IMG/VR virus record: IMGVR_UViG_3300045988_171811
Source of the DNA: a virus
DNA: 43,396 nt
Direction: 5' to 3' (one strand)
Both the position numbers and the translations under genes were made by a program. Shown here one piece after another: positions 1 through 43,396 of this stretch; positions within the stretch are counted from its first letter, which is position 1, and each line of letters opens with the position of its first letter. The notes beneath the pieces were generated by a model, which worked only from the letters and a program-made list of their open reading frames with translations, did no database searches and had not been told where the DNA came from.

Positions 1-55
1 GATTAAGACCAAGGCCGGCGCCTGATAAAATCGCCGTAAAGAAAAAATAACACAA
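1..55. repeat. Terminal 55-bp overlap identical to 43342..43396 (circular contig closure)
   Basis: The first 55 nt (gattaagacc...aataacacaa) match the last 55 nt of the window base for base. Nt 1-24 duplicate the 3' end and stop codon of the capsid gene. Confidence 0.95.
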
Positions 56-3294: not shown

Positions 3295-6200
3295 ATGGCC
3301 GGATATGATCTCGGGACCGCATGGATTCAGATCAGCCCGTCCGTGCGAGGCCTCGCCCGAAGCATCAATAGCGAAATCGGCAACGTCGACACCGGGCCGG
3401 CCGAGAGAAAGATCACATCCGGCCTGGGTGGTGCGTTCAAATCGGTAGCGAAAGTCGCCGGCGCCGCACTCGGAGGGCTCGCAATCGGCGGCATCGCCGT
3501 CGCATTCGGCGGCGTCGCAAAAGAAGCATTCAACGCGGCCGACGCCACAATCAAATTCAAACAAACGCTCGCATTCGCCGGTAAAAGCGCGGACGAAATC
3601 AACGCGCTCACAAAAAGCACGCGCTCCTACGCAGACCGCACAATTTACGAGCTCGACGACATTCAATCAATCACCGCACAGCTAGCATCCAACGGCGTAA
3701 AGGGCTACGATAAACTCGCCGAGGCGGCCGGTAACTTGAATGCTGTTGCTGGCGGGAATGCGCAGACGTTCAAAACGGTCGGCCTTGTCATGACGCAGAC
3801 CGCGGGTGCCGGAAAACTTACCACCGAGAACTGGAATCAGCTTTCCGACGCAATTCCTGGCGCATCTGGTAAATTGCAGGAAGCCATGAAAAAGAATGGC
3901 GCCTACACGGGCAATTTCCGGGAAGCCATGGAAAAGGGCGAGATCACCGCCGAGGAATTCAACCAAGCGATTCTCGACCTCGGTATGGAGGACGTGGCCA
4001 TTGAGGCCGCTACATCCACCAAAACCCTGGAAGGTGCCTGGGGGAACTTCAAGGCGACCCTTGTGACCGGGGCGCAGGAAATCGCCGAAAAAGCACTCCC
4101 GTGGATCACCGCATCCCTTGACGCTATGAGCAAAGGGTTCGAGAAAGTATTCAACTGGGTCAGTAACTCGTTCATTCCTAGTATTACGAATGCTTTCAAC
4201 GTTATCCGCAAGGGTGATTTCACGGGCCCGATCTTCTCGTTCGAGGAAGACTCAAGCTTCGTTGATTTTCTTTTCCGCATGCGTGACGCTGCCGCCGCCG
4301 CGGGGGAATGGATTAACAAGACGCTCGTCCCGTCGTTGAAGAATCTTAAAGATTTGCTCATGTCTGGTGATTTCACGGGGACGATTTTCGGATTCGACAA
4401 AGACTCTGGAATCATCTCGTACATCACCAACGTACGCAACAGTTTCGTCGAGCTCGGCAAATTCATTGTTGGGACGCTCGTCCCCGGCATCGCCACGGCG
4501 CTCAGCACCATCGCGAACAGCAGCCTTGTCCAATTCATGGAAAGTCTCACCGTCGCTATTCTCAATAGCAAAGTGGCGGTTTACAGCATTGCGGCTGCGT
4601 TCACGGCATGGAAAGCCGTCATGGTCATGTCCTCAATGCAGCAATGGCTAAATGACATGGAAGGCGTAGCCGGCGTAGCAGGGCGTGTCACCACGGCCAT
4701 TAACGCGATGACCGTGGCGAAGGTCAAAGACGTGGTTGAGACAGCGCAGCTCAACCTCATGTACGCCGGCGAATTCCTGTCGAATATCGCGCGTGCAACG
4801 ACGCAGATCACGATGCAGGCGGTTGCTTGGGGGAGGGCCACGGCAATGATGGTCCTCCACAAAACTGCAACAATCGCTTCAACTGCGGCGCAGTGGGCAT
4901 TCAACGCCGCAATGGACGCCAACCCAATCGGCCTTGTTGTGATCGCTATTGCAGCATTGGTCGCAGCCATTGTGGTGGCATGGCAGAATTCCGAAACATT
5001 CCGCAACGTCGTCATTTCTTGCTGGGAAGCAATCAAAACAGCAGCCGGGGCCGTGGCCGATTGGTTCGCCGCTAACGTATGGCCTCTCATGCAAGTCGCA
5101 TGGGACGGAATCGTGGCAGGCGCCCAGTGGATGTGGGGCGTCATGGTATCCGTCTGGCAAGGAATGCAACCTATTATTCAGGCGGTCATTGATTGGATCG
5201 TCGGTACCGCATGGCCCGCGCTTCAGGCGGCATGGGACGGGATTGTCGCCGGAGCCCAATGGGTATGGAACGGCATCGTCAGCGTCTGGCAGGGAATACA
5301 GCCCGTCATTCAAGCCGTCGTTGATTGGATCGTAAATACTGCGTGGCCCAACCTGCAAGCCGCCTGGGACGGCATTTCCGCGGGCGCAATGATCGTTTGG
5401 AACGGAATGGTCGCAGCCTGGCAGGGGATCAGCGACATAATCCGGCCTGTCGTTGATTGGATTGTCAACGTTGCCGCTTTGTATCTCACTACGGCATGGG
5501 ATGCTATCAGCTGGGGTGTGAGCGCGCTTTGGTCCACGATTCAGTGGGCGTGGGACGCTATTTGGGCGGCAATCATGCCCGTCGCCACACAAATCTACAA
5601 CGACATTTGGCCCATGGTAGTCGGCGCATTTAACGCGATTAAAGACACCGCCAGTATGATGTGGGCCGATATTCAGATCGCATGGACCGCAATTCAAACC
5701 GCAATTCAGCCCGTTGCAGATTGGATTTACAATACAGTTTGGCCTTGGGTCGTTGGCGCGTTCAATGCGATTAAAGACACAGCCGCCAACATGTGGGCCG
5801 ATATTCAGACCGCGTGGACCGCAATTCAAGCGGCAATGCAACCGGTAGTCGAGTGGATCTACTACACAGCATGGCCCTGGGTAGTCGATACATTCAACAC
5901 GATCAAAGATGCAGCGTCTAATCTTTGGGGCACTGTATCGGCGGCGTGGACCTCCATTCAGGCTGCAATGCAGCCCGTAGTCGAATGGATCTACTACACA
6001 GCATGGCCCTGGGTAGTCGATACATTCAATACAATCAAAGACACCGCCTCCGCCCTTTGGGGCACCATATCAGCGGCGTGGAACGGCATTTGGGCCACCA
6101 TTCAGCCCGTCGTTGATTGGATTTACAATATTGCATGGCCGTGGGTGGTCGGAGCATTCAACGCCATTAAAGACACGGCGTCTATTATGTGGGGCTCCCT

Positions 6201-7857
6201 GTCGGCGACATGGAACGGCATCTGGGCCGTCATGCAGCCTGTGGTGAATTGGATTCAAACCTATGCTGCACCCGTTATTAGTGTGGCCTGGGAAATCATC
6301 TCTACGGGTGCGAAAATTCTGGGCGGAATCATCGCGTTCGTATTCGCGTCCATTATCGCCGCGGTCACCATGGGAGTCGCTGTAATTCAGGGTGCAGCCA
6401 CTACGATCAGCGCGGCCTGGAATACTGTTGTTTCGTGGACCAGCTGGCTGAAAAACATGGTCGTCTCCGCGTGGAACATCCTGAAAGGCGAAATCCAAAT
6501 CGTTAAAGATTGGATCGCTAACACGCTTGTTCCCGCAATTACAAGCGCCTGGGACAGGGTCGTGGCTGCCGCCAATACCATGAAAGATGGTGTTAGGACG
6601 GCGTGGGACAAAATCAAAGAAGCCGCCGCCAAACCCGTTAACTTCGTTATCGGCACAGTTTACAATAACGGGCTGCGGAAACTCGTTAACGGAATGATGG
6701 AGAAGCTCTCCCTCGATCTTCGCCTTCCTGAAGCCCCCACGATTGGCGGGTACGCGTCCGGTGGTGTTCTGCCCGGATACTCTCCGGGCCGTGACATTTA
6801 CCATTTCGTATCACCCGACGGTGGCGGCAGGCTCGCGCTTTCCGGTGGAGAAGCAATCATGCGGCCAGAATGGGTGAAGGCCGTAGGCGGGCCCGCGATG
6901 GTGAATGCCATGAACCGTGCCGCAGCACACGGGGACAGGATTCCCGGTGGTGATGCCGGCTATGCTGCATTCGCCCCGGGCGGTATTTGGGACCCTGTCA
7001 AAGAAACGGTTTCAAAGGGCGCGTCCGCTGCCCTTAATTGGATCACCGGCGCGGCCGATGCGGTGTCCTCGATCTTCTCCGACCCGATCGGAGCCGTCGA
7101 GACTGTCATCAAGGCTCCGGTTCACAAACTTCTCGATTCATGGGGTGGCGACGGGGCGAAACCATTCTTCGACGCCGGGAAAGCGGGCGTTGATAAAACC
7201 ATTGACGCGCTCGGCGATTGGATTAAAGATCACATGCCTGTGGTCAGTGGCTTCGGTGGCGGAATCGGTGCTATTGGTGCCGCTGCCGGCGACCTCGTGA
7301 ATACGGCGCGTCGGGCTATCGGTACACCGTATGTTTGGGGCGGTGTCTCCCCGGGCGGGGGGCTCGACTGTTCTGGTCTTGTCTATTGGGCGCTTAACGC
7401 TATGGGTATTCATGTGCCGCGTCTCACGGCGGCCGGATATCAGGCAATGTCATCTCCCGGTAATCCTATGGTTCCCGGTACGCTTCTGTTCTGGGGTTAC
7501 CCGGCTCACCACGTTGCTATTGCCTCCGGTAATGGAATGATGGTCGAGGCGCCGACGTTCGGCATTCCCGTGCGTGAGGTGCCGATTTACGGTGGGCCGT
7601 CTGCGGGGAATCTTCGCTACGACAATGGCGGATTCTTGCAGCCTGGCCTCTCAACAATTGAGAATAAGACTGGCCGTCCGGAGCCTGTTTTCACGTCAGC
7701 CCAGTGGGAGAAAATGGATAAGCTGATCAGCCTCCTGGAGAATCGCGCGCTCGGCCCGGACGTGCTCGAAATTCGAGATGTGGACAACGATCTTGTCGGC
7801 CGCATGCAAGTGGAAGCGACGTCGGCCATAGTAGACTATGACCGAATGAACCGATAA
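3295..7857 (+). CDS. Tape measure protein with a C-terminal NlpC/P60 peptidoglycan endopeptidase domain
   Basis: 1520 aa, the largest ORF, following the G/GT chaperone. RBS ggagagg. Has internal Trp-rich tandem repeats. The C-terminal motif GTPYVWGG...LDCSGLVYWA...HHVAIASGNGMMVEAP (about nt 7300-7610) is canonical NlpC/P60. Confidence 0.9.
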   Translation: MAGYDLGTAWIQISPSVRGLARSINSEIGNVDTGPAERKITSGLGGAFKSVAKVAGAALGGLAIGGIAVAFGGVAKEAFNAADATIKFKQTLAFAGKSADEINALTKSTRSYADRTIYELDDIQSITAQLASNGVKGYDKLAEAAGNLNAVAGGNAQTFKTVGLVMTQTAGAGKLTTENWNQLSDAIPGASGKLQEAMKKNGAYTGNFREAMEKGEITAEEFNQAILDLGMEDVAIEAATSTKTLEGAWGNFKATLVTGAQEIAEKALPWITASLDAMSKGFEKVFNWVSNSFIPSITNAFNVIRKGDFTGPIFSFEEDSSFVDFLFRMRDAAAAAGEWINKTLVPSLKNLKDLLMSGDFTGTIFGFDKDSGIISYITNVRNSFVELGKFIVGTLVPGIATALSTIANSSLVQFMESLTVAILNSKVAVYSIAAAFTAWKAVMVMSSMQQWLNDMEGVAGVAGRVTTAINAMTVAKVKDVVETAQLNLMYAGEFLSNIARATTQITMQAVAWGRATAMMVLHKTATIASTAAQWAFNAAMDANPIGLVVIAIAALVAAIVVAWQNSETFRNVVISCWEAIKTAAGAVADWFAANVWPLMQVAWDGIVAGAQWMWGVMVSVWQGMQPIIQAVIDWIVGTAWPALQAAWDGIVAGAQWVWNGIVSVWQGIQPVIQAVVDWIVNTAWPNLQAAWDGISAGAMIVWNGMVAAWQGISDIIRPVVDWIVNVAALYLTTAWDAISWGVSALWSTIQWAWDAIWAAIMPVATQIYNDIWPMVVGAFNAIKDTASMMWADIQIAWTAIQTAIQPVADWIYNTVWPWVVGAFNAIKDTAANMWADIQTAWTAIQAAMQPVVEWIYYTAWPWVVDTFNTIKDAASNLWGTVSAAWTSIQAAMQPVVEWIYYTAWPWVVDTFNTIKDTASALWGTISAAWNGIWATIQPVVDWIYNIAWPWVVGAFNAIKDTASIMWGSLSATWNGIWAVMQPVVNWIQTYAAPVISVAWEIISTGAKILGGIIAFVFASIIAAVTMGVAVIQGAATTISAAWNTVVSWTSWLKNMVVSAWNILKGEIQIVKDWIANTLVPAITSAWDRVVAAANTMKDGVRTAWDKIKEAAAKPVNFVIGTVYNNGLRKLVNGMMEKLSLDLRLPEAPTIGGYASGGVLPGYSPGRDIYHFVSPDGGGRLALSGGEAIMRPEWVKAVGGPAMVNAMNRAAAHGDRIPGGDAGYAAFAPGGIWDPVKETVSKGASAALNWITGAADAVSSIFSDPIGAVETVIKAPVHKLLDSWGGDGAKPFFDAGKAGVDKTIDALGDWIKDHMPVVSGFGGGIGAIGAAAGDLVNTARRAIGTPYVWGGVSPGGGLDCSGLVYWALNAMGIHVPRLTAAGYQAMSSPGNPMVPGTLLFWGYPAHHVAIASGNGMMVEAPTFGIPVREVPIYGGPSAGNLRYDNGGFLQPGLSTIENKTGRPEPVFTSAQWEKMDKLISLLENRALGPDVLEIRDVDNDLVGRMQVEATSAIVDYDRMNR
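5098..6285 (+). repeat. Nine in-frame tandem repeats of 132 bp (44 aa, Trp-rich) inside the tape measure gene
   Basis: Unit starts at 5098, 5230, 5362, 5494, 5626, 5758, 5890, 6022 and 6154. There are two sub-families, AWDGIVAGAQW... and AFNAIKDTA..W. Units 7 and 8 are nearly identical over about 60 nt. Confidence 0.85.
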
Positions 7858-12840: not shown

Positions 12841-13830
12841 ATGGCAAATATTACTGGGTACACTAAGGCCGGCGTAGACAAGCTGGTCGCCCCCCTGTTC
12901 TCTTCAATCTCGCCTTTCACGGTCGGCGGCCACTATTATTCTCCGGTCACGTATTTCTGGCCCGATTTCTACAATGAAGGCCAGGCCGGGAAGGTGTCAA
13001 AGTGGGCCAAGACATTGGCTTACGGGAATGCTCTCGGCTACGTGATTATGAATCGTTCTACGGGCGATTGGTCCGCCAAGGATAATGATTTTCTCGCGCA
13101 GGCGCAGCGCGCCCAGGCGGCCGGCGCGAAGAGAATTCTTTGGTACATTCCTACCCGCTACGGTGTAGCGTCACTCGCCAAGGATGATGCTGCCAGGAAT
13201 GGTGTGCCGGACCCGGACAAGTTTACGCGCGAATACATTATGCAGCTGTGCGCCAACCTTCGCTCCCAGTACGATGGTCTTTTCCAGGGCGTATTCTTGG
13301 ACGAGGTAATCAACGGCTGGGGCGCCCAGGCGGGACGAGTCGGCTGGTATGGCGACCTCATCGGCGAAATTCGACGCGCCTACGGGAAGAATTTCACAAT
13401 CGCCATAAACCCTGGCAGCAATATTACCGAGGCCGTGTGCGCGCTCGATTTCGACGTGTGCATGAGCTTCGAGGATACTGCCGCCAAGTATTTGACGGAT
13501 GACCCTAATAATCCGATTGCGAATGATGTGATGCGGGCACAGCCTTCCACCAAGTGGTGGCATGTCATTCATGGGGTTACGAAAGAGAATTTCCGGCAGG
13601 TAATCGATCGTGCCGCATCATTTGGTGTTTCGCATTTGTATGTGACCGACGGTGAGCTGGTGCAGGGTGAGGGCGGCCAGTGGGTTCCTGAGAAGAACCC
13701 CTATCAGAATCCTCCGTCTGATTGGATCATGGAACGTGTGATCGCCTGGCATGGCGGCTACCTCGGTCTGGCTGAGCGTGTTGCCGAGTTGGAAGCGAAA
13801 GCGGCTCCGTCTCCGCAACCTGGCGCCTGA
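12841..13830 (+). CDS. Spherulin-4 / GH135-like (Sph3-type) glycoside hydrolase, putative exopolysaccharide depolymerase
   Basis: The motif order fits my recollection of the Spherulation-specific family 4 profile: VIMNRSTGDW, ILWYIPTRYG, GVFLDE (catalytic D-E region), IAINPGS, DVCMSFE. Last gene of the tail module. Confidence 0.55.
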   Translation: MANITGYTKAGVDKLVAPLFSSISPFTVGGHYYSPVTYFWPDFYNEGQAGKVSKWAKTLAYGNALGYVIMNRSTGDWSAKDNDFLAQAQRAQAAGAKRILWYIPTRYGVASLAKDDAARNGVPDPDKFTREYIMQLCANLRSQYDGLFQGVFLDEVINGWGAQAGRVGWYGDLIGEIRRAYGKNFTIAINPGSNITEAVCALDFDVCMSFEDTAAKYLTDDPNNPIANDVMRAQPSTKWWHVIHGVTKENFRQVIDRAASFGVSHLYVTDGELVQGEGGQWVPEKNPYQNPPSDWIMERVIAWHGGYLGLAERVAELEAKAAPSPQPGA

Positions 13831-13831
13831 G

Positions 13832-13847
13832 TGTTTCACGTGAAACA
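13832..13847. promoter_or_regulatory. Perfect consensus parS (ParB/Spo0J binding site) TGTTTCACGTGAAACA
   Basis: Exact 16-bp palindrome beginning 2 nt after the stop codon at 13830. The same 16-mer occurs at 21017 and 21041. Confidence 0.8.
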
Positions 13848-13884
13848 TTCCCCCTCACCGCACAAATCGTGGTGAGGGGGAATG
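13846..13884. terminator. Bidirectional terminator hairpin at a convergent junction
   Basis: 14-nt arms cattccccctcacc / ggtgagggggaatg with an 11-nt loop and gttttc downstream. Separates the + tail module from the - accessory block. Confidence 0.7.
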
Positions 13885-13906
13885 TTTTCATGCCCAAAAC
13901 GGGAGA

Positions 13907-14374
13907 CTATAGTCCCAGGCGTTGGTAGTCTCCTCCGTGCTCGCGAGCAATATCGTCCAATACGCCCATGAGATCGGAGCGCGCATCGTCCTGAGCGGTG
14001 ATCGACGGTGAGTTCAGAATCGAATGAATCGTGCTGTTGATCTCTCGGAATTGACGGGCAGCGATTGCGTCACACTCTACGGTAGTCCATTGTCGCGCTA
14101 GATGGCGTGCAAGATTGCATGTGCTCTCGCCGCTTGTTTCATGGTAAACGCCCACAATGCTCAGCGGCCGGCCCCAGATAACCCATTTACTGACAGTGCC
14201 GCCATCGTCGTTTTCTACGGTGACGTCAATTCCAGCGCCCTTATATTGGTAGCGCCACTTCAGACGGGCGACCATGTGCGTTTCGTCAATGTCGCACATG
14301 TCGGGCTTCGGAAGCCATAACTGTGTGAGACTAATCTCGTGCTCGATCTTCAGCATTGGGTTATTCGCTGTCAT
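13907..14374 (-). CDS. Hypothetical protein (accessory block)
   Basis: 155-aa ORF overlapping the upstream gene by 4 nt. No family recognised. Confidence 0.55.
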   Translation of the reverse strand: MTANNPMLKIEHEISLTQLWLPKPDMCDIDETHMVARLKWRYQYKGAGIDVTVENDDGGTVSKWVIWGRPLSIVGVYHETSGESTCNLARHLARQWTTVECDAIAARQFREINSTIHSILNSPSITAQDDARSDLMGVLDDIAREHGGDYQRLGL

Positions 14375-17171: not shown

Positions 17172-17563
17172 GATTTGACCCACTCGATCTCGTCGCCGAG
17201 AAGCCCGCGCAGATCATTGATCAAGTTGCGCGCGTTCCCGAGCTCCTCCTCGCTGATATCGAAAACTCGGTAGACATTTTCTTCGGTGCAGATCACGAGG
17301 AAGTGATCGTGTGCGCATTCGGGGATGAAAACGTTGCGGATGTTTCCGATGAGGGCGGGCCGCTGAACGGGAATGGCCTGTACGAGGTCGGCCCCCGTGA
17401 GAATTGCGACAGCAGTCACTCTCTCAACAGGGATACCCCGGAACTCGTTCTCGCCTTTCTCGTATCCCTTTGCGGGGAAGTGAATCTTGGTGCCTTTCAG
17501 GTTGGTGAATACGGCTCCTCCTGTGGTCTTGCATGATCCATATCCGGTGCGACGGCGTACCAT
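17168..17563 (-). CDS. Hypothetical protein
   Basis: The start is set at internal ATG 17563, preceded by gaaagag-N5. The longer ORF to 17632 has a His/Pro-rich, implausible N-terminus. Confidence 0.5.
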   Translation of the reverse strand: MVRRRTGYGSCKTTGGAVFTNLKGTKIHFPAKGYEKGENEFRGIPVERVTAVAILTGADLVQAIPVQRPALIGNIRNVFIPECAHDHFLVICTEENVYRVFDISEEELGNARNLINDLRGLLGDEIEWVKS

Positions 17564-19654: not shown

Positions 19655-19787
19655 CGCGACATGTTGGTGTTCCATCATGGCTTGTTTGGTTGGCATTATA
19701 GTGGGCGTCGTGCCATGATGGAGGCAACGTACGAGGGGCTTCACTCTCTTCCCCCCTCGTAACCCCCCGGTGCCGTAGGGGTGATCA

Positions 19788-19830
19788 CGATCCCCGAGAA
19801 TAGTCGGTGATTGACTATTCTCGGGGATCG
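19788..19830 (+). terminator. Rho-independent terminator after the endolysin gene
   Basis: Perfect 18-nt arms cgatccccgagaatagtc / gactattctcggggatcg with a 7-nt loop, followed by tgttttat. Confidence 0.75.
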
Positions 19831-20003
19831 TGTTTTATATGTGTGCTATACTTCCCTACGTACCGCTTATTGGTTAATACACAAATATTTTCCTACGCGT
19901 TCCGACGGTGCAACAAGAGAATACTATCGCCCTCACGTTTCCTGCATTCTTCCCTTAGCTGCTTTAGGAGTCGACGTGAGGGCGGTAGTATACAATCCAT
20001 CTA

Positions 20004-20234
20004 ATGAAAGTGAAAATTAGGGTGACTAAGTCGCTTTATGTTGCCGCAATTTTTGCGGCCGTCATGGTGACAGCAAACACGGCGTTCATGGTGTATAATG
20101 ACTTCGCCAAGGGCACCGTAAGCGTGACTCGCGATTCTCTGTGGTGTGTTGGTGCGATTATTCTTTGGGCCACCGTACGCACCGTCCGGTTCATGCGGAC
20201 TATCGGCTACTATCCTGGTTTCCACAGAAAATAA
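20004..20234 (+). CDS. Small membrane protein (moron-like insert in the lysis cassette)
   Basis: 76 aa with two hydrophobic segments (LYVAAIFAAVMVTANTAFMVY, LWCVGAIILWATV). Sits in an AT-rich segment bracketed by strong hairpins. No clear RBS. Confidence 0.45.
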   Translation: MKVKIRVTKSLYVAAIFAAVMVTANTAFMVYNDFAKGTVSVTRDSLWCVGAIILWATVRTVRFMRTIGYYPGFHRK

Positions 20235-20241
20235 CCAAAAC

Positions 20242-20287
20242 ATAACATTCCTGCCTAACAATCATCGTTGTTAGGCAGGAATGTTAT
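20242..20287 (+). terminator. Terminator hairpin after the moron gene
   Basis: Perfect 19-nt arms ataacattcctgcctaaca / tgttaggcaggaatgttat with an 8-nt loop. Confidence 0.7.
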
Positions 20288-20343
20288 ATAATACGTGTTG
20301 GCAACCCTGTAAAAACAATCACGACAAAGAGGACATTAGATAT

Positions 20344-20724: not shown

Positions 20725-20958
20725 ATGTTTACTCCTGAGGTCCGCAAGGCCCTTTACGCCCTCCTCACCGCTGTTCTCGGTGTTTTTGCGGCTTTCAATG
20801 TTATTTCTGCGGATCAGGCGTCTCAGTATGCTGACGCTGTTACCCAGATTGTCGGTGCTCTGACTCTGGCGCTGGCTACGTATCACACTCGCCCGGGCGC
20901 GGCCGCTGGCCGTCACGCCGCCGGTGAGGGTGAGGCCGCTGAGGACAAGGTAGCCTGA
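20725..20958 (+). CDS. Holin (two-TM, actinophage type)
   Basis: 77 aa. RBS gaggtga-N9. Has two TM segments (ALYALLTAVLGVFAAFNVI, IVGALTLALATY) and a charged C-terminus. Last gene of the lysis cassette. Confidence 0.65.
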   Translation: MFTPEVRKALYALLTAVLGVFAAFNVISADQASQYADAVTQIVGALTLALATYHTRPGAAAGRHAAGEGEAAEDKVA

Positions 20959-20976
20959 CCTCCGCCTTCCACAGAA

Positions 20977-21018
20977 CATTACTGCCCCCTACCGAACATG
21001 CGATAGGGGGCAGTAATG
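20977..21018. terminator. Bidirectional terminator hairpin at a convergent junction
   Basis: Perfect 15-nt arms cattactgcccccta / tagggggcagtaatg with a 12-nt loop. The right arm overlaps the first parS of the pair by 2 nt. Confidence 0.7.
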
Positions 21019-21032
21019 TTTCACGTGAAACA
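21017..21032. promoter_or_regulatory. Perfect consensus parS TGTTTCACGTGAAACA (copy 2)
   Basis: Exact 16-mer, identical to 13832-13847. Confidence 0.8.
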
Positions 21033-21040
21033 CGGGGGCA

Positions 21041-21056
21041 TGTTTCACGTGAAACA
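21041..21056. promoter_or_regulatory. Perfect consensus parS TGTTTCACGTGAAACA (copy 3)
   Basis: Exact 16-mer, start to start 24 bp from copy 2. Ends 2 nt before the stop codon of the RuvC-like gene. Confidence 0.8.
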
Positions 21057-21057
21057 T

Positions 21058-21543
21058 TCACCTCCGTTCCATGTCGCTCCCGACGATGCGGGCGATCACA
21101 TCCTCGTCGTGGCGTTTAGTGACTGCCCACAGGAAGAGATGACGCCCCGCATCACGCACGTCGTCCGCATCGGGCTGGCTCACGTCGGCTCCAGTGGGCC
21201 AAAAACCAAGAGACTTCAAAACATGGTCGGGCATGGTTGTTTTCGCCATTGCGGGAGTCTGCCATACGATATCCCCGATCTCCCATTCCAGCACGGAGTT
21301 GATTTTTACTGGGGTGAGGTCTGCGAGAAAATTGTTGCCCGGTCGAAGATCGAATTGCTCGCACACGACAATGTCTGGGGCGAATTCGTTTCGTGTGGCC
21401 AGAATGTCGTATGCACTGGCGGTCCAATGCTCATACTTGAATTGTTGAACATGAATGATTGAGAATTCGTGGTCGTCGTGGAAGTCTCCGACGACGATTC
21501 CTGTTGATTTGCCGGGATCAACGGCCATCACCCGTTGCATCAT
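21058..21543 (-). CDS. RuvC-like Holliday junction resolvase
   Basis: 161 aa. The N-terminal MAVDPGKSTGIVVG has the first catalytic Asp motif of the RuvC/RNase H fold. ATGA overlap with the upstream gene. Confidence 0.65.
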   Translation of the reverse strand: MMQRVMAVDPGKSTGIVVGDFHDDHEFSIIHVQQFKYEHWTASAYDILATRNEFAPDIVVCEQFDLRPGNNFLADLTPVKINSVLEWEIGDIVWQTPAMAKTTMPDHVLKSLGFWPTGADVSQPDADDVRDAGRHLFLWAVTKRHDEDVIARIVGSDMERR

Positions 21544-22604
21544 GCCTTTTCTCCCCCCTTATTCTTCCGCAAGCCTCGCCGCGACTTGTTCACGGTAGCA
21601 ATACTTTTTACCATGTCCGAACGCACTCCGTCCACCTTGAGCCACAGCGTGTCTGGAGTCATTGGTTTACCTCGACCTTTCTTCAAAGTCCACGGCGTAT
21701 CCGGGTCGTCCGGGAAAGGTAGATTCTTATAGCACCATATTGCACAATCCTGTGGGGAATCGAAATGGAAATCTTCCTTCGGAATGTATCTTTTTAAGTC
21801 GTAGATGCGTCGCATGAGTGAAGGTGTGAGCCATTTCGGTAGTTCCTTGTACATGCGCAGCGATGAGCTAGTGCATGGGCAATTCACGGGTTCGCCGCCG
21901 CTGAAGCGCGAGACACGAATCCACTTCTCTTCCCCGCAATTCACACAACGCATATGAAAATACTTATGGTGATCGCTCATGAACCTGTACTCGGGGGACG
22001 TAACCTCCCACTGCCGGAAACGGCGTCCCACCATTTCCGGCTCTTCCCCAGTCAAGTTTTTGTTCACTGGCTTGACAGGGTGGAGAATGCGGCGGTTGCG
22101 ACCTTTCTTTCTTGTCTTGGTGCGCATGATAGAGATTTCACCGGGGCGAAATACTCCGTTTTCAGTCGCGAACTTCCATTCGAATACAACCGATGGGTTG
22201 AATTCGTTATAGCACCACTCGATAGCCGACGTCATGCCGTCGAACTCAAAATTATCTACACCGTTCTCCTCTCGCCACACCCAAATATTGAGGCGAATAT
22301 CGTTGTAGGAACGGCTTGGCATGAGTGTCTCATTTGCCTTGCGATGGTAGCGCAAATACGGCATGTCCGGCGTGTGATCTAGTGCTACGTCAAGGTTGCA
22401 TGGGGCGATTGGCTTGGTAATGTCAGGGCGCACGAAACGCCATTTCTTGTCCTCGGGAATCTCCAAATAGGTGAAGCACCATTCCAGGGCGGCATCCACG
22501 GAGGGGAAAAGAAATTCCCCGCTGGGGACACTTGTTTGAAGCCTGTCCAGCCTGTTAGCGGCTAGCCTGTACAGTTTGTATGATGGTTGCGTCACTTGCG
22601 TCAT
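21540..22604 (-). CDS. Hypothetical protein with a triplicated WC-motif module and a Cys4 zinc ribbon
   Basis: 354 aa. Three similar segments: VDAALEWCFTYLEIP, MTSAIEWCYNEFNPS and PQDCAIWCYKNLPFP. Also has CVNCGEEKWIRVSRFSGGEPVNCPC. No family recognised. Confidence 0.55.
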   Translation of the reverse strand: MTQVTQPSYKLYRLAANRLDRLQTSVPSGEFLFPSVDAALEWCFTYLEIPEDKKWRFVRPDITKPIAPCNLDVALDHTPDMPYLRYHRKANETLMPSRSYNDIRLNIWVWREENGVDNFEFDGMTSAIEWCYNEFNPSVVFEWKFATENGVFRPGEISIMRTKTRKKGRNRRILHPVKPVNKNLTGEEPEMVGRRFRQWEVTSPEYRFMSDHHKYFHMRCVNCGEEKWIRVSRFSGGEPVNCPCTSSSLRMYKELPKWLTPSLMRRIYDLKRYIPKEDFHFDSPQDCAIWCYKNLPFPDDPDTPWTLKKGRGKPMTPDTLWLKVDGVRSDMVKSIATVNKSRRGLRKNKGGEKA

Positions 22605-35257: not shown

Positions 35258-35310
35258 TAGACACTGTCTAACACGCCTAGACAGTGTCTATTTTTGTTAG
35301 ACAGTGTCTA
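35258..35310. promoter_or_regulatory. Three 13-bp palindromes TAGACA-N-TGTCTA phased at exactly 20 bp (operator-like array)
   Basis: Copies at 35258-35270, 35278-35290 and 35298-35310. Flanked by further short inverted repeats (tactctt-aa-aagagta at 35235-35250; tgttca-N4-tgaaca nearby). Confidence 0.7.
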
Positions 35311-35469
35311 ATTAGGTAACATGTGTTATAACATAATTAGTGTTCAATGGTGAACATGACGATTGTTAACAGTGAACAGTGCGATGGGGGCAACACACAC
35401 TATTGCGGTGGCATACAACACACACACTATTAGATAAACAAACCCGCAATACACGAGGCGTGTGCTGTG

Positions 35470-35504
35470 TTACGTGCGTGCTCGCAAAGCTGCGCGCGCA
35501 CTAC
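35470..35504 (+). repeat. 35-bp repeat copy 1 (hairpin GTGCGTGC...GCGCGCAC) followed by a purine-rich tract
   Basis: ttacgtgcgtgctcgcaaagctgcgcgcgcactac differs from the copy at 36130-36164 only at two loop positions (aa versus gg). Confidence 0.7.
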
Positions 35505-35675
35505 ACAGCACCCGCCATTCCAAAACAAAGAAAAACGAGGAGAAAAGAAAGAGAAAAGGAAAAAAGAACAGAGAGGGTAGTGTTAGACGGTGGAGGCGCT
35601 CGTCTCGCTGACGCTGCGACGCGCCACCACCTAACACAAACAAAGAGAAAGAAAAGCGAAGAGAGGAGAACAACG

Positions 35676-36020
35676 GTGAGCAGAACAAGCACCAAAGAAC
35701 ATAAACAATTCAGAAAACAAGTACTCGCCAGAGCACAAGCAATGGGCATCACACACTGCCCAGCATGCGGAACCAAACTCCAATACCACAATAACGGGCA
35801 ACGCAAACCCAACTCAGCCGAGGCAGACCACATAATCCCAGCCTCACTAGGCGGAACCAACCACCCAGACAACGGCAGAGTGCTGTGCGCCAAATGCAAC
35901 AGCAGACGCGGCAACGGCAGAGGAGGAAAAGGAAAAGCACGCCACTACCAGAAAAACGAGGGGGAACGAGACAGGCTACCTATCGCAGTCATGCCCACCG
36001 AACACTCGGACACATGGTGA
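35676..36020 (+). CDS. HNH endonuclease (terminase-associated type)
   Basis: GTG start after gagaggagaa-N5. Motifs: CPACG...EADHIIPASLGGTNHPDNGRVLCAKCNSRRGN. The part of the track ORF upstream of it is low-complexity. Confidence 0.8.
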   Translation: MSRTSTKEHKQFRKQVLARAQAMGITHCPACGTKLQYHNNGQRKPNSAEADHIIPASLGGTNHPDNGRVLCAKCNSRRGNGRGGKGKARHYQKNEGERDRLPIAVMPTEHSDTW

Positions 36021-36129
36021 ATCACACACCACCGCCATTCCAACACACAGAAAGGCTGGGCAAAAAGAGAAGAGAAAAGAGGAGAAGAGAAGACAAAGAG
36101 ACACAATGGTGTTCGGGGATTACGTGCGT

Positions 36130-36164
36130 GCTCGCAGGGCTGCGCGCGCACTACCCCGAACACC
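36130..36164 (+). repeat. 35-bp repeat copy 2 followed by a (GAGGAA)n purine-rich tract
   Basis: ttacgtgcgtgctcgcagggctgcgcgcgcactac lies 660 bp downstream of copy 1 and is followed by aaagaggaagaggaagaggaagaggagaag. Confidence 0.7.
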
Positions 36165-36969
36165 GAACAACAAAGAGGAAGAGGAAGAGGAAGAGGAGAA
36201 GACGGAGAACAGCGAACTAAAACAACACACCACGCCCCCTCCCCACCATTCCAGCACACGCATAAACCATCACCGCCATTCCACAATGACACAACCATGC
36301 CACAAAAACACTACCCTAAACCAACAATACTGTGACAGCAAACACAAAGGGCGGAAGAGAAGAGCAGAACAGGACACAGTTCCACACGCCACATACCACC
36401 GCACTTCCCCACCCACAACAAACACGACAATACACAAGACAGAAGAAGAGCGGGAACAACACAAGGGAAGCAGGACAACGCGAAGACAGGGAACACCATG
36501 AAGATGACGGGGACAACGCAAGACAGGGGACACCGCACACGCCAACACACCCCGCCCCTCAACACGGCCACCACACAAACGTAAGGGGGACGCCGATACA
36601 AAACGAGGGGACGTCATCACACAGACGAGAGGGTCATCATCGCAGCACCCGCCCTTCATTCACCATGCCACCCCACCACACAATGGCACCCCACCATCCA
36701 CTACGCCCCCACCCACCACCACCGTGAAGGGGGGAGCACACAGAGGATACCCCACCACACAAACACTGCAGACACGCACCACCCACACACCACACACCCG
36801 GCAGGCAACAGTGCACGACACGACAGCAGTACTCACACAGTACGCACGAGGAGTAGATGGCATGGGCCGCACGCACTTGGTCGGGCACACCACCGCCATT
36901 CCACAGCAGCACACACCGACGAGGATGGACACCATCCACTCTCCCACCTCACACTGTTCACGTTCACAC

Positions 36970-37310
36970 AACCAACGAACAACAATGATCAACGAACATG
37001 ATGATGAACAATCATCGTTCAATGATCAATCAATCAACAATGAATGATGAACATCATGATGATCAATGATGATCAACAATAAACATGATCAACATGATGA
37101 TGAACATCACGATGATGATGTGATGCATGACATGCATACCAATACCATGCACCATGCATGGTGCCAACGCATGCCACAAGGCAACATGCAATGCACAAAC
37201 GCACAAACACACAAAAAAGCATAAAAACAAAAGAAATGTTACAAAAAATGCAAAAATATTCAAGGCACGAATCGAACAATGGCGTTCAAAAAAACCATGG
37301 CAACAAAACG
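36970..37310. repeat. AT-rich degenerate repeat tract (ATGATCAA / ATGATGAACA / ATGCAT) with phased A-tracts
   Basis: Five ATGATCAA copies place GATC at 36987, 37024, 37061, 37071 and 37087. A5-7 tracts begin at 37213, 37223, 37243, 37252 and 37288. Confidence 0.7.
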
Positions 37311-37319
37311 AGACGAACA

Positions 37320-37353
37320 TAAGGGATCCCTTAAAAGAGTAAGGGATCCCTTA
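37320..37353. promoter_or_regulatory. Two 14-bp perfect palindromes TAAGGGATCCCTTA, 20 bp apart
   Basis: Copies at 37320-37333 and 37340-37353. Each is part of a 16-bp direct repeat, taagggatcccttaaa. Confidence 0.75.
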
Positions 37354-37491
37354 AAGTGGGACCCACACCACAAAACAAGACAGGGAACACACACAAACGA
37401 GACACACACCACACAAATTATGTGATGGGGGCCACCCCCCCTCCCCCATCTGGCCGCGAACACCCCGAAGGTCTGCCCATCTCTCCCTGCT

Positions 37492-37620
37492 TGTGGAAAA
37501 CCCTGTGGATAACTCCAGTAATCCATGTCACAATGTGACTGCCGTCATGTGGAAAACTCCCAAACCTGTGGAAAACCCTGTGGAAAACTCAGACAGCCTG
37601 TGGATAACCCTGTGGAAAAC
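37492..37620 (+). promoter_or_regulatory. Cluster of seven co-oriented TGTGGAWAAC boxes (complement of DnaA-box consensus TTWTCCACA; alternatively terS/cosB-type sites)
   Basis: Boxes start at 37492, 37504, 37548, 37567, 37579, 37599 and 37611. Two are TGTGGATAA (perfect TTATCCACA) and five are TGTGGAAAA. Three pairs have 12-bp spacing. The extended consensus is CCTGTGGAAAACYC. Confidence 0.7.
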
Positions 37621-37626
37621 CCCGCA

Positions 37627-37663
37627 GGAACATGACTGACATTACAGCATATAATAGAGGGTA
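37627..37663 (+). promoter_or_regulatory. Candidate late/packaging promoter with a perfect -10 TATAAT and a leaderless terS start
   Basis: TATAAT is at 37650-37655. The terS ATG begins at 37663, 7 nt after the -10, and has no usable SD (the only SD-like element, gaggg, lies just 1 nt upstream). The weak -35 is ggaaca with a 17-nt spacer. Confidence 0.4.
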
Positions 37664-37944
37664 TGACAACCCACACAAACACCACAATCACCGTATACGA
37701 ACCCAACAGCCCCGCACCCATCACAGACGCCACAAACACCGGCAACCCCACCCTCATCCGCCAAGCACTCGCACACAAAATCGCCACCGTCATAGACGAC
37801 CCCAGGACAGGCGACACAGCACTCACAAAACTCACCGCACAACTCATACAAATCACAGACCAACTCGCCACCACACAAAACGAAAACACACAAACACACA
37901 CCACCGACATTCCAAACGAAACACAAACCTGGGACGGCATCTGA
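37663..37944 (+). CDS. terS: Small terminase subunit (candidate)
   Basis: 93 aa. The stop overlaps the terL ATG (ATCTGATG). The segment LIRQALAHKIATVIDDPRTGDTALTKLTAQLIQITDQLA resembles the C-terminal helices of actinophage small terminases. Sits directly upstream of terL. Confidence 0.5.
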   Translation: MTTHTNTTITVYEPNSPAPITDATNTGNPTLIRQALAHKIATVIDDPRTGDTALTKLTAQLIQITDQLATTQNENTQTHTTDIPNETQTWDGI

Positions 37945-42433: not shown

Positions 42434-43366
42434 ATGGCCGTGTTTGATTCAGGCAAGGCAAAGGTCCTCATGCCTCGGCAGATTGCCGACGGGATCATTA
42501 CTCGTACTCAGACTCTCTCCACCGTCGCCAAGCTCAACGGTGGAATCCCCATGACTTTCGGCGACGTGGACATTATCACTTTCGATAATTTCCCGCGCGC
42601 CGAGTTCGTTGACGAGGGCGCTGAAAAGGCGCCCACCTCCGGTGAATTCGGCTATGTGACCGCTAAGCCGCATAAGGCGCAGGTTACTATGCGATTCAAC
42701 GAGGAGGTCCAGTGGGCCGACGAGGATTATCAGCTGGACGTCCTCAACCAGCTCGCGCAGAAGGGTAGTGAGGCGCTTTCCCGGGCCCTTGACCTCGGAC
42801 TTTATCACCGTGTTAACCCGCTGACTGGCGCTGTTATTGACGCGTGGACCAATTACCTGACCTCCACCACCAAGAATGTCGAGATTGGCACTACGGAGAT
42901 GGACCAGGCGATCCGTCAGGCCGCCGGTCTGCTCATTAATGATAATGCTGCGCCGATTACCCCCACTGGTCTTGCGCTTGCCCCGTCCGCGGTTTGGGCG
43001 CTCGGTAGTCTCCAGACCAAGAATGCAGACGGGTCGCCGTCGGGGACGCCGCGTTACCCGCAGATCGGCCTTGGTGTCAACATTGACAACTTTATGGGAC
43101 TTCCGGCTGCCGCTGGAAACACTGTTGCCGGTAAGCCTGAGGCGACCGCCGCCACCAATGTCGAGGGCATCGTCGGCGATTTCGTGGATGGTATTCGGTG
43201 GGGAATTCAGCGTTCTCTTCCGCTTGAGATTATCCGTTTCGGTGACCCGGACGGCCAGGGTGATTTGAAGCGTCGGAACCAGATCGCTCTGCGTCTCGAG
43301 ATTCTGTACGCTTGGTATGTTTTCCCGGACAAGTTCGCGACGATTAAGACCAAGGCCGGCGCCTGA
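42434..43366 (+). CDS. Major capsid protein (HK97 fold)
   Basis: 310 aa, following the scaffold gene. Composition and length are typical of HK97-like capsid proteins. Its 3' end runs into the 55-bp terminal overlap. Confidence 0.8.
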   Translation: MAVFDSGKAKVLMPRQIADGIITRTQTLSTVAKLNGGIPMTFGDVDIITFDNFPRAEFVDEGAEKAPTSGEFGYVTAKPHKAQVTMRFNEEVQWADEDYQLDVLNQLAQKGSEALSRALDLGLYHRVNPLTGAVIDAWTNYLTSTTKNVEIGTTEMDQAIRQAAGLLINDNAAPITPTGLALAPSAVWALGSLQTKNADGSPSGTPRYPQIGLGVNIDNFMGLPAAAGNTVAGKPEATAATNVEGIVGDFVDGIRWGIQRSLPLEIIRFGDPDGQGDLKRRNQIALRLEILYAWYVFPDKFATIKTKAGA

Positions 43367-43396
43367 TAAAATCGCCGTAAAGAAAAAATAACACAA
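43342..43396. repeat. Terminal 55-bp overlap identical to 1..55
   Basis: Exact match to window positions 1-55. Confidence 0.95.

What the first reader, a model, noticed from the sequence alone, without database searches (positions are those of the whole stretch)
20977..21056. Tandem pair of perfect parS sites abutting the second convergent terminator
Two exact TGTTTCACGTGAAACA copies (21017-21032 and 21041-21056, 24 bp start to start) follow a perfect 15-bp-stem bidirectional terminator. They fill the whole gap between the holin and the RuvC-like gene. As at 13832, the site lies exactly where converging transcription stops. That repeated architecture (terminator plus parS at both strand-switch points, about 7.2 kb apart, flanking the accessory and lysis segment) argues for selection rather than chance. 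Terminators may protect ParB nucleation from read-through transcription, or the sites may delimit a ParB spreading or sliding domain.
Basis: partly seen in the sequence, partly recalled or inferred. Interest (0 to 1): 0.85.

Follow-up and report, generated by a model that had tools for sequence, protein, structure and literature searches.

The report
Host centromere sites on an oral phage
A family of roughly 43-kb phages from the human mouth carries three strongly conserved copies of the bacterial chromosome "centromere" sequence (parS) but no partition genes of its own, so it most likely borrows the host's ParB protein, as Bacillus phage phi29 is known to do.

Summary
TGTTTCACGTGAAACA occurs exactly three times in the window (13832, 21017, 21041). 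The tandem pair plus a 15-bp-stem hairpin fills the gap between a holin-like gene and a putative RuvC-like gene. It is not chance, and it is not just terminator structure.

- **Conservation:** in about 50 related phage contigs the 16-mers are the least variable positions (pi 0.01-0.03). For comparison, pi is 0.42 in the spacer, 0.33 in the hairpin loop and 0.26 at third codon positions.
- **Sequence, not structure:** the 16-mers show no compensatory changes, while the adjacent hairpin covaries.
- **Both places kept:** all 37 genomes that cover both places keep at least one site at each.
- **No phage partition genes:** no ParB, ParA, integrase or repressor was detected.

The window is a complete circular assembly of a human oral actinobacteriophage. 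The best reading is pirated host-type parS sites that load host ParB. This probably makes phage DNA a cargo of the host segregation machinery when lysis is delayed.

This has a precedent. Phi29 carries host parS sites used by Spo0J, and one of them lies between a stop codon and the bidirectional terminator TD1.

Binding and function are inferred, not shown, and the host genus is unresolved. I rate it a new member of a known kind, of moderate to high interest.

The parts
20977..21018 (.). Bidirectional terminator-like hairpin. It has a 15-bp G+C-rich stem and a 12-nt loop. The 3' arm overlaps the first two bases of parS-1.
   Evidence: Sequence. RNA folds on both strands have z-scores of about -7.5. 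Across 45 relatives, 7 of 15 stem pairs change on both sides, and 0 of 500 shuffles reach this. The consensus scan did not flag it because the loop exceeds 8 nt and the T-run is weak.
21017..21032 (.). parS-1, next to the hairpin: TGTTTCACGTGAAACA
   Evidence: Exact match. Pi is 0.028 across 52 relatives. Its distal end base covaries with the hairpin stem: A to G together with U to C in 4 relatives.
21033..21040 (.). Variable spacer between the two sites
   Evidence: It is 6-10 nt long in relatives, with pi 0.42.
21041..21056 (.). parS-2, 1 nt from the stop codon of the putative RuvC-like gene: TGTTTCACGTGAAACA
   Evidence: Exact match. Pi is 0.026. It is absent as a clean 24-nt unit in 4 of 52 relatives.
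13832..13847 (.). Distal parS, 2 nt after the stop codon of the Spherulin4-like tail gene
   Evidence: Exact match. Pi is 0.009, and 37 of 40 relatives are perfect; the other 3 carry only the A16-to-G change.
13847..13883 (.). Second bidirectional terminator-like hairpin (ATTCCCCCTCACC ... GGTGAGGGGGAAT). It shares its first base with the distal parS.
   Evidence: The arms have pi 0.02-0.03 and the loop 0.43, with compensatory variants visible in the alignment.
13883..13892 (.). Remnant of a parS half-site (TGTTTTCATG) on the other side of the distal hairpin
   Evidence: Three relatives (L007, L012, L015) have a complete second parS here. In the rest, GAAAACA stays conserved (pi 0.035) while the outer part decays.
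20725..20958 (+). Holin-like gene, the last gene of the lysis block, transcribed towards the sites
   Evidence: ORF. Precomputed weak Phage_holin_9 hit.
21058..21543 (-). Putative RuvC-like resolvase gene, the last gene of the replication and recombination block, transcribed towards the sites
   Evidence: phrog_1981 at 5e-24 and RuvC-like phrog_159 at 2.8e-4. No Pfam hit.
12841..13830 (+). Last gene of the tail block (Spherulin4 domain), converging on the distal site
   Evidence: Pfam PF12138 at 2e-14.
13907..14374 (-). Last gene of the minus-strand accessory block, converging on the distal site
   Evidence: ORF, also called in related contigs. No family hit.

Best explanation
The three 16-mers are genuine chromosomal-type parS sites that this phage family has acquired and keeps under selection. 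The phage encodes no ParB or ParA, so the sites can only work with the host's proteins.

**Proposed mechanism (inferred)**
1. Host ParB dimers recognise the 16-mers on the injected or replicating phage genome.
2. They bind CTP, close into clamps and slide onto flanking phage DNA, building a partition complex.
3. Through ParA, and possibly SMC and polar tethering, the phage DNA then behaves like a host origin region.
4. Phage DNA is therefore positioned and passed to daughter cells whenever lysis is delayed. That would be a carrier or dormant state, the counterpart of Spo0J-dependent spore entrapment of phi29.

**Why the sites sit where they do (inferred)**
The tandem pair increases loading. 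The sites lie just outside the bidirectional terminators at the two main convergent junctions. There, no RNA polymerase runs through them and no coding or promoter constraint applies.

**Shown:** sequence identity to parS, selection on the sequence, absence of detectable phage partition genes, and structural selection on the hairpins.
**Inferred:** ParB binding and everything downstream of it.
For: - **Identity:** three perfect 16/16 matches to the parS consensus, with 0.35 matches expected even at up to 3 mismatches.
- **Proximal pair:** in 52 relatives, 88 of 100 copies are perfect. Pi is 0.026-0.028, against 0.42 (spacer), 0.33 (loop), 0.26 (codon position 3) and 0.09-0.12 (codon positions 1 and 2).
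- **Distal site:** pi 0.009, with 37 of 40 perfect.
- **Pattern of variants:** most fall at the outermost positions 1 and 16 or at position 5, the N of TGTTNCACGTGAAACA.
- **Spacer:** its length varies from 6 to 10 nt while the 16-mers stay fixed.
- **Both places kept:** all 37 genomes covering both keep at least one site at each. Copy numbers (proximal, distal) are (2,1) in 31, (2,2) in 3 and (1,1) in 3.
- **Divergent relative:** one whose neighbouring gene product is only 70% identical still has the module.
- **No structural signal:** the parS-parS pairing shows no compensatory change, while the adjacent hairpin covaries.
- **No partition or lysogeny genes:** Pfam, PHROGs and PADLOC found no ParB, ParA, integrase or repressor among the ORFs of about 60 aa or more that were searched.
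- **No integrated or plasmid copy:** none in PLSDB and no close prophage in the genome collection.
- **Actinobacterial host:** portal relatives are overwhelmingly actinophages.
- **Behaviour of such sites in an actinobacterium:** in Corynebacterium glutamicum, identical 16-bp sites recruit ParB. A single site supports spreading up to 16 kb on each side. Ectopic sites recruit SMC. Nine of the ten native sites are intergenic (PMC7083940).
- **Precedent:** virulent phi29 carries host parS sites used by Spo0J to segregate phage DNA into the prespore (PMC2731898; PMC9437464). Phi29 has TGTTTCACGTGGAACA four times, one between the gene 16 stop and terminator TD1.
Against: - No binding or functional data exist, and the host genus is unknown.
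- The closest isolates and more distant relatives have no parS: Actinomyces phage LC001, Rothia phage Spartoi, Actinomyces phage Av-1, and phages sharing an endolysin of about 50% identity. The trait is therefore confined to this family.
- The probable hosts, oral Actinobacteria, do not sporulate. The one demonstrated benefit of parS piracy, spore entrapment, therefore cannot apply directly.
- No regulator that would suspend the lytic cycle has been identified.
- SMC loaded at a convergent junction would have to move head-on against transcription.
- One relative (L008) has lost both proximal copies, and another (L046) has both mutated.
Confidence: 0.6

Rival explanations
1. **Decoy or titration.** The sites do bind host ParB, but the benefit is to the lytic cycle. 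Dozens to hundreds of replicating genomes with 2-4 sites each would outnumber the host's few chromosomal parS sites. That would strip ParB, and with it ParA or SMC activity, from the host origin. Chromosome segregation and cell division would be blocked, or the nucleoid freed, while the phage multiplies.
For: - The sites are perfect consensus copies, so presumably of the highest affinity, and occur in tandem.
- The phage looks lytic: no integrase, repressor or prophage copies were found.
- In C. glutamicum, loss or displacement of parS gives 25-29% anucleate cells (PMC7083940).
Against: - A decoy would be expected to multiply its sites, yet copy number stays at 2-4 per genome and at two fixed places.
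- Titration would act late, when copy number is high and the cell is about to lyse anyway.
- The only studied precedent, phi29, uses parS for segregation and not for titration.
Confidence: 0.18
2. **Timing or insulation.** ParB loaded at the two places spreads or bridges across the 7.2-kb segment between them, which holds the accessory and lysis genes. It dampens or insulates expression of that segment and so sets the timing of lysis.
For: - The two places bracket exactly the accessory and lysis blocks, and both are always retained.
- ParB can spread up to 16 kb from a single site in an actinobacterium.
- Plasmid ParB homologues such as KorB do silence genes (PMC11790492, listed; abstract only).
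Against: - From general knowledge, chromosomal ParB has little effect on the transcription of the genes it covers.
- Three of the four phi29 sites lie inside transcribed genes.
- A single site would spread just as far in both directions, so two boundaries are not needed.
Confidence: 0.1
3. **Operator for a phage protein.** The palindromes are binding sites for an unrecognised phage-encoded DNA-binding protein, and their identity to parS is coincidental or convergent.
For: - Many ORFs have no detectable family, including the 354-aa protein with internal repeats and a zinc-ribbon-like motif encoded two genes away.
- The genome has other operator-like palindromes.
Against: - An arbitrary 16-bp palindrome would match the parS consensus at all 8 half-site positions with probability of about 1.5e-5.
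- The tolerated variants fall where ParB tolerates them.
- Unrelated tailed phages with G+C from 27% to 73% carry the identical tandem sequence. That points to a universal host factor rather than a family-specific protein.
Confidence: 0.05
4. **Terminator structure only.** The tandem palindromes pair with each other in RNA, forming a stem of about 18 bp. They simply form a second terminator hairpin, or supply the U-tract, for the converging operons.
For: - The minus-strand RNA folds the two copies into one long hairpin beside the terminator.
- TGTTTCA directly follows both hairpins and could serve as a weak U-tract.
- The site's end base is part of the stem and covaries with it.
Against: - None of the 16 pairs shows a compensatory change and 10 never vary, whereas the true hairpin shows 7 of 15 pairs changed on both sides.
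- Four relatives at the proximal place, and most at the distal place, have a single copy. On its own that copy folds at only -3.9 kcal/mol.
- A hairpin has no need for each arm to be a palindrome, nor to equal parS.
Confidence: 0.03

Closest known systems
Host parS sites in virulent Bacillus phage phi29 (Spo0J-dependent spore entrapment; Meijer et al. 2005, as cited in PMC2731898 and PMC9437464)
   Same: - A phage with no lysogeny module and no ParB carries several copies of the host's chromosomal parS sequence.
- In phi29 (NC_011048), TGTTTCACGTGGAACA occurs four times.
- One copy (17243-17258) starts right after the gene 16 stop codon and lies 3-12 nt before the annotated bidirectional terminator at the convergent junction of late and early operons. 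This is the same layout as at 13.8 and 21.0 kb here.
   Different: - Phi29 is a 19-kb protein-primed podovirus of a spore-forming Firmicute. This phage is a 43-kb siphovirus-type actinophage from the human mouth, and its probable hosts do not sporulate.
- Phi29's sites are single, carry one mismatch, and mostly lie inside genes. Here they are perfect, partly in tandem, and all intergenic.
- Phi29 also has Spo0A boxes that suspend the lytic cycle. No equivalent switch has been identified here.
Self-contained parABS cassettes of plasmid-prophages (P1 ParAB-parS, N15 SopAB with dispersed centromeres, cluster A mycobacteriophage parABS; Dedrick et al. 2016, as cited in PMC12704722)
   Same: Centromere-like repeats on a phage genome serve to segregate an unintegrated phage genome.
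   Different: Those elements encode their own ParA and ParB and use element-specific parS sequences. Here no parA or parB was detected, and the sequence is the universal chromosomal consensus.
Chromosomal parS clusters of Actinobacteria (e.g. the ten identical 16-bp sites of Corynebacterium glutamicum, PMC7083940)
   Same: The 16-bp sequence class is the same, the sites are mostly intergenic, they are redundant and closely spaced, and more sites recruit more ParB.
   Different: Those sites lie near oriC on the chromosome. Here they lie mid-genome on a phage, pressed against terminators at convergent junctions.
Other tailed-phage contigs with tandem perfect parS in IMG/VR (L058, L068 and L072 phi29-like; L065, L067 and L076 with portal, capsid or terminase genes)
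   Same: They carry the identical tandem TGTTTCACGTGAAACA-N8-TGTTTCACGTGAAACA in bona fide phage contigs, with G+C from 27% to 73%.
   Different: They are unrelated in sequence to this family, and their sites lie in other gene contexts. In L058 the junction is convergent; in L068 and L072 the flanking genes run the same way.

Membership tests
Chromosomal-type (Spo0J/ParB) parS site | 16-bp palindrome matching TGTTNCACGTGAAACA | tested here: met
   Three 16/16 matches and no other match at up to 3 mismatches.
Chromosomal-type (Spo0J/ParB) parS site | The sequence itself, not just base pairing, is constrained relative to neutral neighbours | tested here: met
   Pi is 0.009-0.028, against 0.26-0.43 for the spacer, loops and third codon positions. 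No compensatory changes occur.
Chromosomal-type (Spo0J/ParB) parS site | Specific, CTP-dependent binding and spreading of ParB | not testable with these tools
   This needs ChIP-seq or in vitro binding with the host ParB.
Chromosomal-type (Spo0J/ParB) parS site | A cognate ParB is present in the same cell | tested here: inconclusive
   No ParB was detected in the phage. The host is inferred to be an actinobacterium, and studied members of that group use this consensus. The host genus itself was not identified.
Self-contained phage or plasmid parABS partition cassette | parA and parB genes encoded next to the centromere | tested here: not met
   No ParBc, ParA, CbiA or AAA_31-type hit appeared in any ORF searched. 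The flanking genes are holin-like, putative RuvC-like, a tail protein and an unknown.
Phi29-type piracy of host parS by a virulent phage | Multiple host-consensus parS sites on a phage genome that lacks parB and lysogeny genes | tested here: met
.
Phi29-type piracy of host parS by a virulent phage | Host-dependent segregation of phage DNA into a dormant cell type, together with a host-factor switch that suspends lysis (Spo0A boxes) | not testable with these tools
   The host is unidentified and no switch element was recognised. The three TAGACAGTGTCTA palindromes at 35258-35310 are candidates only.
Intrinsic (factor-independent) bidirectional terminator | G+C-rich hairpin maintained by compensatory change | tested here: met
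   Seven of 15 pairs change on both sides, 97% of cells are paired, and 0 of 500 shuffles reach this. Fold z-scores are about -7.5.
Intrinsic (factor-independent) bidirectional terminator | U-rich tract directly after the stem on both strands | tested here: inconclusive
   Only TGTTTCA and TGTTCTATG follow the stem, so the consensus scan did not flag the hairpins. From general knowledge, actinobacterial terminators often lack U-tracts. Termination itself was not measured.

The most novel reading that the evidence does not exclude
Piracy of the host centromere may be a widespread and overlooked phage strategy, not a peculiarity of phi29 and spores.

On this reading, an abundant 'lytic' phage family of the human mouth persists in a non-sporulating actinobacterium as an unintegrated episome. 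The host's own ParABS machinery segregates it, and the phage supplies no partition or immunity genes.

Its genome may even mimic a host origin region. Besides parS, it carries a conserved cluster of seven DnaA-box-like repeats (37492-37619) next to an AT-rich repeat tract.

The module of parS plus bidirectional terminator, shared with phi29 TD1, would place ParB loading sites where converging transcription confines the sliding clamps.
Probability: 0.2. Interest if true: 0.8.

Novelty: new member of a known kind. Interest (0 to 1): 0.6.

Why it matters
If host ParB really loads on these genomes, a common phage of the human oral microbiome would exploit the host's chromosome-segregation system without encoding any part of it.

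- **Persistence:** this would give a concrete, testable mechanism for how apparently virulent phages persist in slow-growing biofilm bacteria, as a carrier state or pseudolysogeny.
- **Reach of the phi29 paradigm:** it would extend the 20-year-old phi29 and Spo0J model beyond spore-formers.
- **Breadth:** identical tandem sites occur in unrelated tailed phages spanning G+C from 27% to 73%, which suggests the strategy is broad.
- **Experimental use:** the phage offers a natural, minimal, three-site substrate for studying how ParB loading interacts with converging transcription.

Tried and rejected
- **Chance:** rejected by shuffles and by the perfect triple match.
- **Terminator-only explanation:** rejected by the contrast between covariation and invariance and by single-copy variants.
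- **Phage-encoded ParB, ParA, integrase or repressor:** searched with Pfam, PHROGs and PADLOC on essentially all ORFs of about 60 aa or more. None was found. Remote folds were not tested by structure prediction.
- **Extra or degenerate sites:** none at up to 3 mismatches. The half-site GTTTCAC occurs only once outside the full sites, against 6.4 expected in total.
- **Plasmid or prophage lifestyle:** no PLSDB match. No close prophage among the species-representative genomes; the best was a Timonella senegalensis prophage with a portal 57% identical and no parS. One contig of 50-200 kb carries the identical RuvC-like protein but could not be displayed.
- **Host identification:**
  - Megablast against isolated phages found nothing.
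  - Endolysin homologues occur only on phage-sized metagenome contigs.
  - LC001, Spartoi and Av-1 lack parS.
  - G+C of 55% and the oral habitat fit Rothia or Corynebacterium better than Actinomyces, but this is only a guess.
- **General coupling of parS to hairpins in viral contigs:** not found. Among the surveyed sites, 7.9% had a flanking hairpin stronger than all controls, against 4.8% expected.
- **ParB-dependent T-dioxygenase systems (PMC13229309):** irrelevant, because those ParB-like proteins lack a DNA-binding domain and no dioxygenase is present here.
- **Rfam and tRNA scans:** nothing found.
- **Literature:** full-text searches turned up no report of host-type parS on actinophages lacking ParB. 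Livny et al. 2007 was not held.

Full report

Yes. Reading 20800-21250 and 13650-14000 shows TGTTTCACGTGAAACA at 21017-21032 and 21041-21056, separated by CGGGGGCA. A third copy lies at 13832-13847. A search allowing up to three mismatches returns only these three, all perfect. Dinucleotide-preserving shuffles give 0.35 matches, and 0 of 100 reach three.

The hairpin is as described. CATTACTGCCCCCTA (20977-20991) pairs with TAGGGGGCAGTAATG (21004-21018) around a 12-nt loop. Its 3' arm overlaps the first two bases of the first site.

The holin-like ORF stops at 20958 and the minus-strand putative RuvC-like ORF stops at 21058. Hairpin and sites therefore fill the 99-nt gap.

At 13.8 kb the arrangement is mirrored: stop codon, 2 nt, parS, then a hairpin (13847-13883) that shares one base with the site.

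**2. What is the window?**

It is a complete phage genome. The first and last 55 nt are identical, which marks a circular assembly with a unique length of 43,341 bp. G+C is about 55%. The gene blocks are:

- **Head and tail:** 37.9-43.4 kb and 0-13.8 kb, plus strand. These include terminase, an SPP1-type portal, VG15, capsid, a 1520-aa tape measure, and a last gene with a Spherulin4 domain.
- **Accessory block:** 13.9-17.9 kb, minus strand, with a dCTP deaminase-like gene and a DUF3310 gene.
- **Lysis block:** 18.2-21.0 kb, plus strand, with an ELLD endolysin and a holin-like gene.
- **Replication and recombination block:** from 21.06 kb, minus strand. It holds a putative RuvC-like gene, a DUF669 gene, AAA_24, an exonuclease, an SNF2 helicase, a primase/helicase-like gene and DUF3987.

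The two parS places sit at the two large convergent junctions. A third strong terminator-like hairpin (19786-19832) inside the lysis cassette has no parS.

No ParB, ParA, integrase or repressor domain was found by Pfam, PHROGs or PADLOC in any ORF searched.

The phage has no close relative among isolated phages. Its portal is 55% identical to that of Actinomyces phage LC001, and 1741 weaker matches are overwhelmingly actinophages. An identical gene lies on contigs of about 43.3 kb from human oral metagenomes. There is no PLSDB match and no close prophage among species-representative genomes.

The host is therefore an oral actinobacterium whose genus I could not determine.

**3. Comparative evidence**

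A scan of IMG/VR with the putative RuvC-like protein returned 55 related contigs at 84-95% identity, mostly 42-43 kb. Nearly all carry the 16-mers at the same two places.

*Proximal junction, 52 usable sequences:*

| Region | Pi |
|---|---|
| The two 16-mers | 0.026 and 0.028 |
| Spacer (length 6-10 nt) | 0.42 |
| Hairpin loop | 0.33 |
| Codon position 3 of the neighbouring gene | 0.26 |
| Codon positions 1 and 2 | 0.12 and 0.085 |

- Of 100 copies present, 88 are perfect.
- Four relatives lack one copy as a clean 24-nt unit.
- One contig has lost both copies, and one has both mutated.

*Distal place, 40 sequences:*

- The site has pi 0.009, and 37 of 40 copies are perfect. The other three differ only by A16 to G.
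- Three relatives have a second complete parS on the far side of the hairpin. The others retain a decayed half-site there, of which GAAAACA stays conserved.

*Both places together:*

- All 37 genomes covering both places keep at least one site at each. Copy numbers (proximal, distal) are (2,1) in 31, (2,2) in 3 and (1,1) in 3.
- Most variants fall at positions 1 and 16 or at position 5, the N of the Bacillus consensus.
- A more divergent relative, whose neighbouring 354-aa protein is only 70% identical, still has the intact module.
- Phages that share only an endolysin of about 50% identity have no parS, and neither do LC001, Rothia phage Spartoi or Actinomyces phage Av-1.

The trait is therefore specific to this family, and within it strongly maintained.

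**4. Structure or sequence?**

Each site is a palindrome, so the tandem pair can fold into an RNA hairpin of about 18 bp next to the terminator hairpin. This is a real rival explanation. I counted pairs on a 45-sequence alignment to test it.

- **Terminator hairpin:** 97% of cells are paired, and 7 of 15 pairs change on both sides (19 cells). None of 500 shuffles and none of the slid controls reach this.
- **parS-parS pairing:** no compensatory change at all, and 10 of 16 pairs never vary.

So the hairpin is conserved as a structure and the 16-mers are conserved as a sequence. That is the signature of a protein-binding site.

The two elements are physically interlocked. The end base of the hairpin-proximal site belongs to the stem and covaries with it (A-U to G-C in four relatives). 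TGTTTCA also follows both hairpins where a U-tract would be expected.

**5. What is it, and how does it work?**

The sequence equals the chromosomal parS consensus. In the actinobacterium Corynebacterium glutamicum (PMC7083940):

- ten identical 16-bp sites of this class recruit ParB, and sites with three or more mismatches do not;
- nine of the ten are intergenic;
- a single site supports spreading up to 16 kb on each side;
- ectopic sites recruit SMC.

With no partition genes detected on the phage, the parsimonious reading is that host ParB loads on the phage DNA.

Its purpose is inferred by analogy. While examining unrelated IMG/VR contigs that also carry tandem perfect parS, I found that three are phi29-like podoviruses. 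That led to the known precedent. Virulent phi29 contains parS sites for host Spo0J and uses the host segregation machinery to get its genome into the prespore (PMC2731898; PMC9437464).

In the phi29 record, TGTTTCACGTGGAACA occurs four times. One copy (17243-17258) lies between the gene 16 stop codon and the annotated bidirectional terminator at the convergent junction.

I therefore favour the following: the phage makes itself a cargo of host ParABS, so that its DNA is positioned and inherited when lysis is delayed.

**6. Rival readings**

- **Titration of ParB as a decoy:** possible, but the low and fixed site number argues against it.
- **ParB-mediated damping or insulation of the 7.2-kb segment between the places:**
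- **An operator for an unknown phage protein:** unlikely, given the exact consensus and its recurrence in unrelated phages with G+C from 27% to 73%.
- **Terminator structure only:** rejected as the sole explanation.

**7.

It is partly supported.

*In favour:*
- Both places are retained.
- The interlocking with hairpins is conserved.
- Phi29 offers a parallel.

*Against generality:*
- Among 165 parS sites in 120 other viral contigs, a flanking hairpin stronger than all 20 local controls occurred in 7.9%, against 4.8% expected, and the mean z-score was about 0.
- This genome has another terminator without parS.

A simpler explanation cannot be excluded. Convergent gaps may just be the places where a 16-bp palindrome disturbs neither coding sequence nor promoters.

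**8. Novelty**

The element is a known kind of site, and the strategy has one studied precedent. What is new:

- the phage family, which is abundant in human oral metagenomes (its endolysin clusters hold hundreds of member sequences);
- the probable non-sporulating actinobacterial host;
- the perfect, tandem, terminator-interlocked arrangement;
- the comparative proof of selection.

My literature searches found no report of host-type parS on actinophages lacking ParB. Together these hint that the phenomenon is wider than recognised.

I rate it a new member of a known kind, with interest 0.6.

Noticed in passing
window 37492-37619: Seven same-strand copies of TGTGGAWAA lie here, several as pairs 12 bp apart, within the unit CCTGTGGAAAAC. 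TGTGGAWAA is the complement of the DnaA-box TTWTCCACA. Only 0.59 copies are expected in the whole window. The cluster is conserved, at 5-9 copies, in most of the roughly 60 related contigs. It could be a set of DnaA boxes (an origin or DnaA titration) or terminase-binding repeats next to cos.
   Followed up: partly
window about 37430-37480: Many related IMG/VR contigs end here, 7 of them exactly at 37474 and about 25 within 37425-37617. The spot is a G+C-rich stretch just upstream of the repeats and the terminase gene. It is probably the physical genome end (cos). An HNH endonuclease ORF lies at 35379-36020.
   Followed up: partly
window 35258-35310: Three copies of the 13-bp palindrome TAGACAGTGTCTA are spaced 20 bp apart in an intergenic region (0.44 expected). 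They look like operators for an unidentified regulator.
   Followed up: no
window about 35400-37940: About 2.5 kb is A/C-rich and strongly strand-skewed (AT skew up to 0.53). Apart from the HNH endonuclease ORF (35379-36020), it has only low-complexity ORFs and no Rfam hit. It includes an AT-rich tract of ATGATCAA and ATGATGAACA repeats at 36980-37115. The large terminase subunit probably starts at the Met near 37944 and not at 37632.
   Followed up: partly
window 19786-19832 and 20241-20288: Two very strong hairpins with 20-bp stems flank the small ORF or ORFs at 20001-20261 inside the lysis cassette. The first is followed by a T-run. Which strand is coding there is ambiguous: a membrane-like 76-aa ORF on the plus strand, or the 80-aa ORF called on the minus strand in public annotations.
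   Followed up: no
L206 (phi29, NC_011048) 17243-17258: One of phi29's four TGTTTCACGTGGAACA sites lies directly between the gene 16 stop codon (17242) and the annotated bidirectional rho-independent terminator (17262-17301). The other three lie inside genes 10, 15 and 17.
   Followed up: yes
L058, L065, L067, L068, L072, L076: Six viral contigs unrelated to this family, with G+C from 27% to 73%, carry the identical tandem parS-N8-parS. All encode tailed-phage proteins, and three are phi29-like. L068 is distantly Av-1-like, although Av-1 itself has no parS.
   Followed up: partly
window 21540-22604 (minus strand): This 354-aa protein has three internal repeats built around EWC-type motifs and a CxxC...CxC zinc-ribbon-like motif. 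It has homologues only within this phage family and no Pfam, PHROGs or PADLOC hit.
   Followed up: partly
window 1-55 and 43342-43396: The first and last 55 nt are identical, which marks a circular assembly. The unique genome length is 43,341 bp.
   Followed up: yes
window 5090-6255: Tandem 132-nt (44-aa) repeats lie inside the 1520-aa tape-measure gene.
   Followed up: no
whole window: Outside the three full sites, the parS half-site GTTTCAC occurs only once (24216), although about 6 occurrences in total are expected by composition. This may reflect avoidance of stray half-sites.
   Followed up: partly
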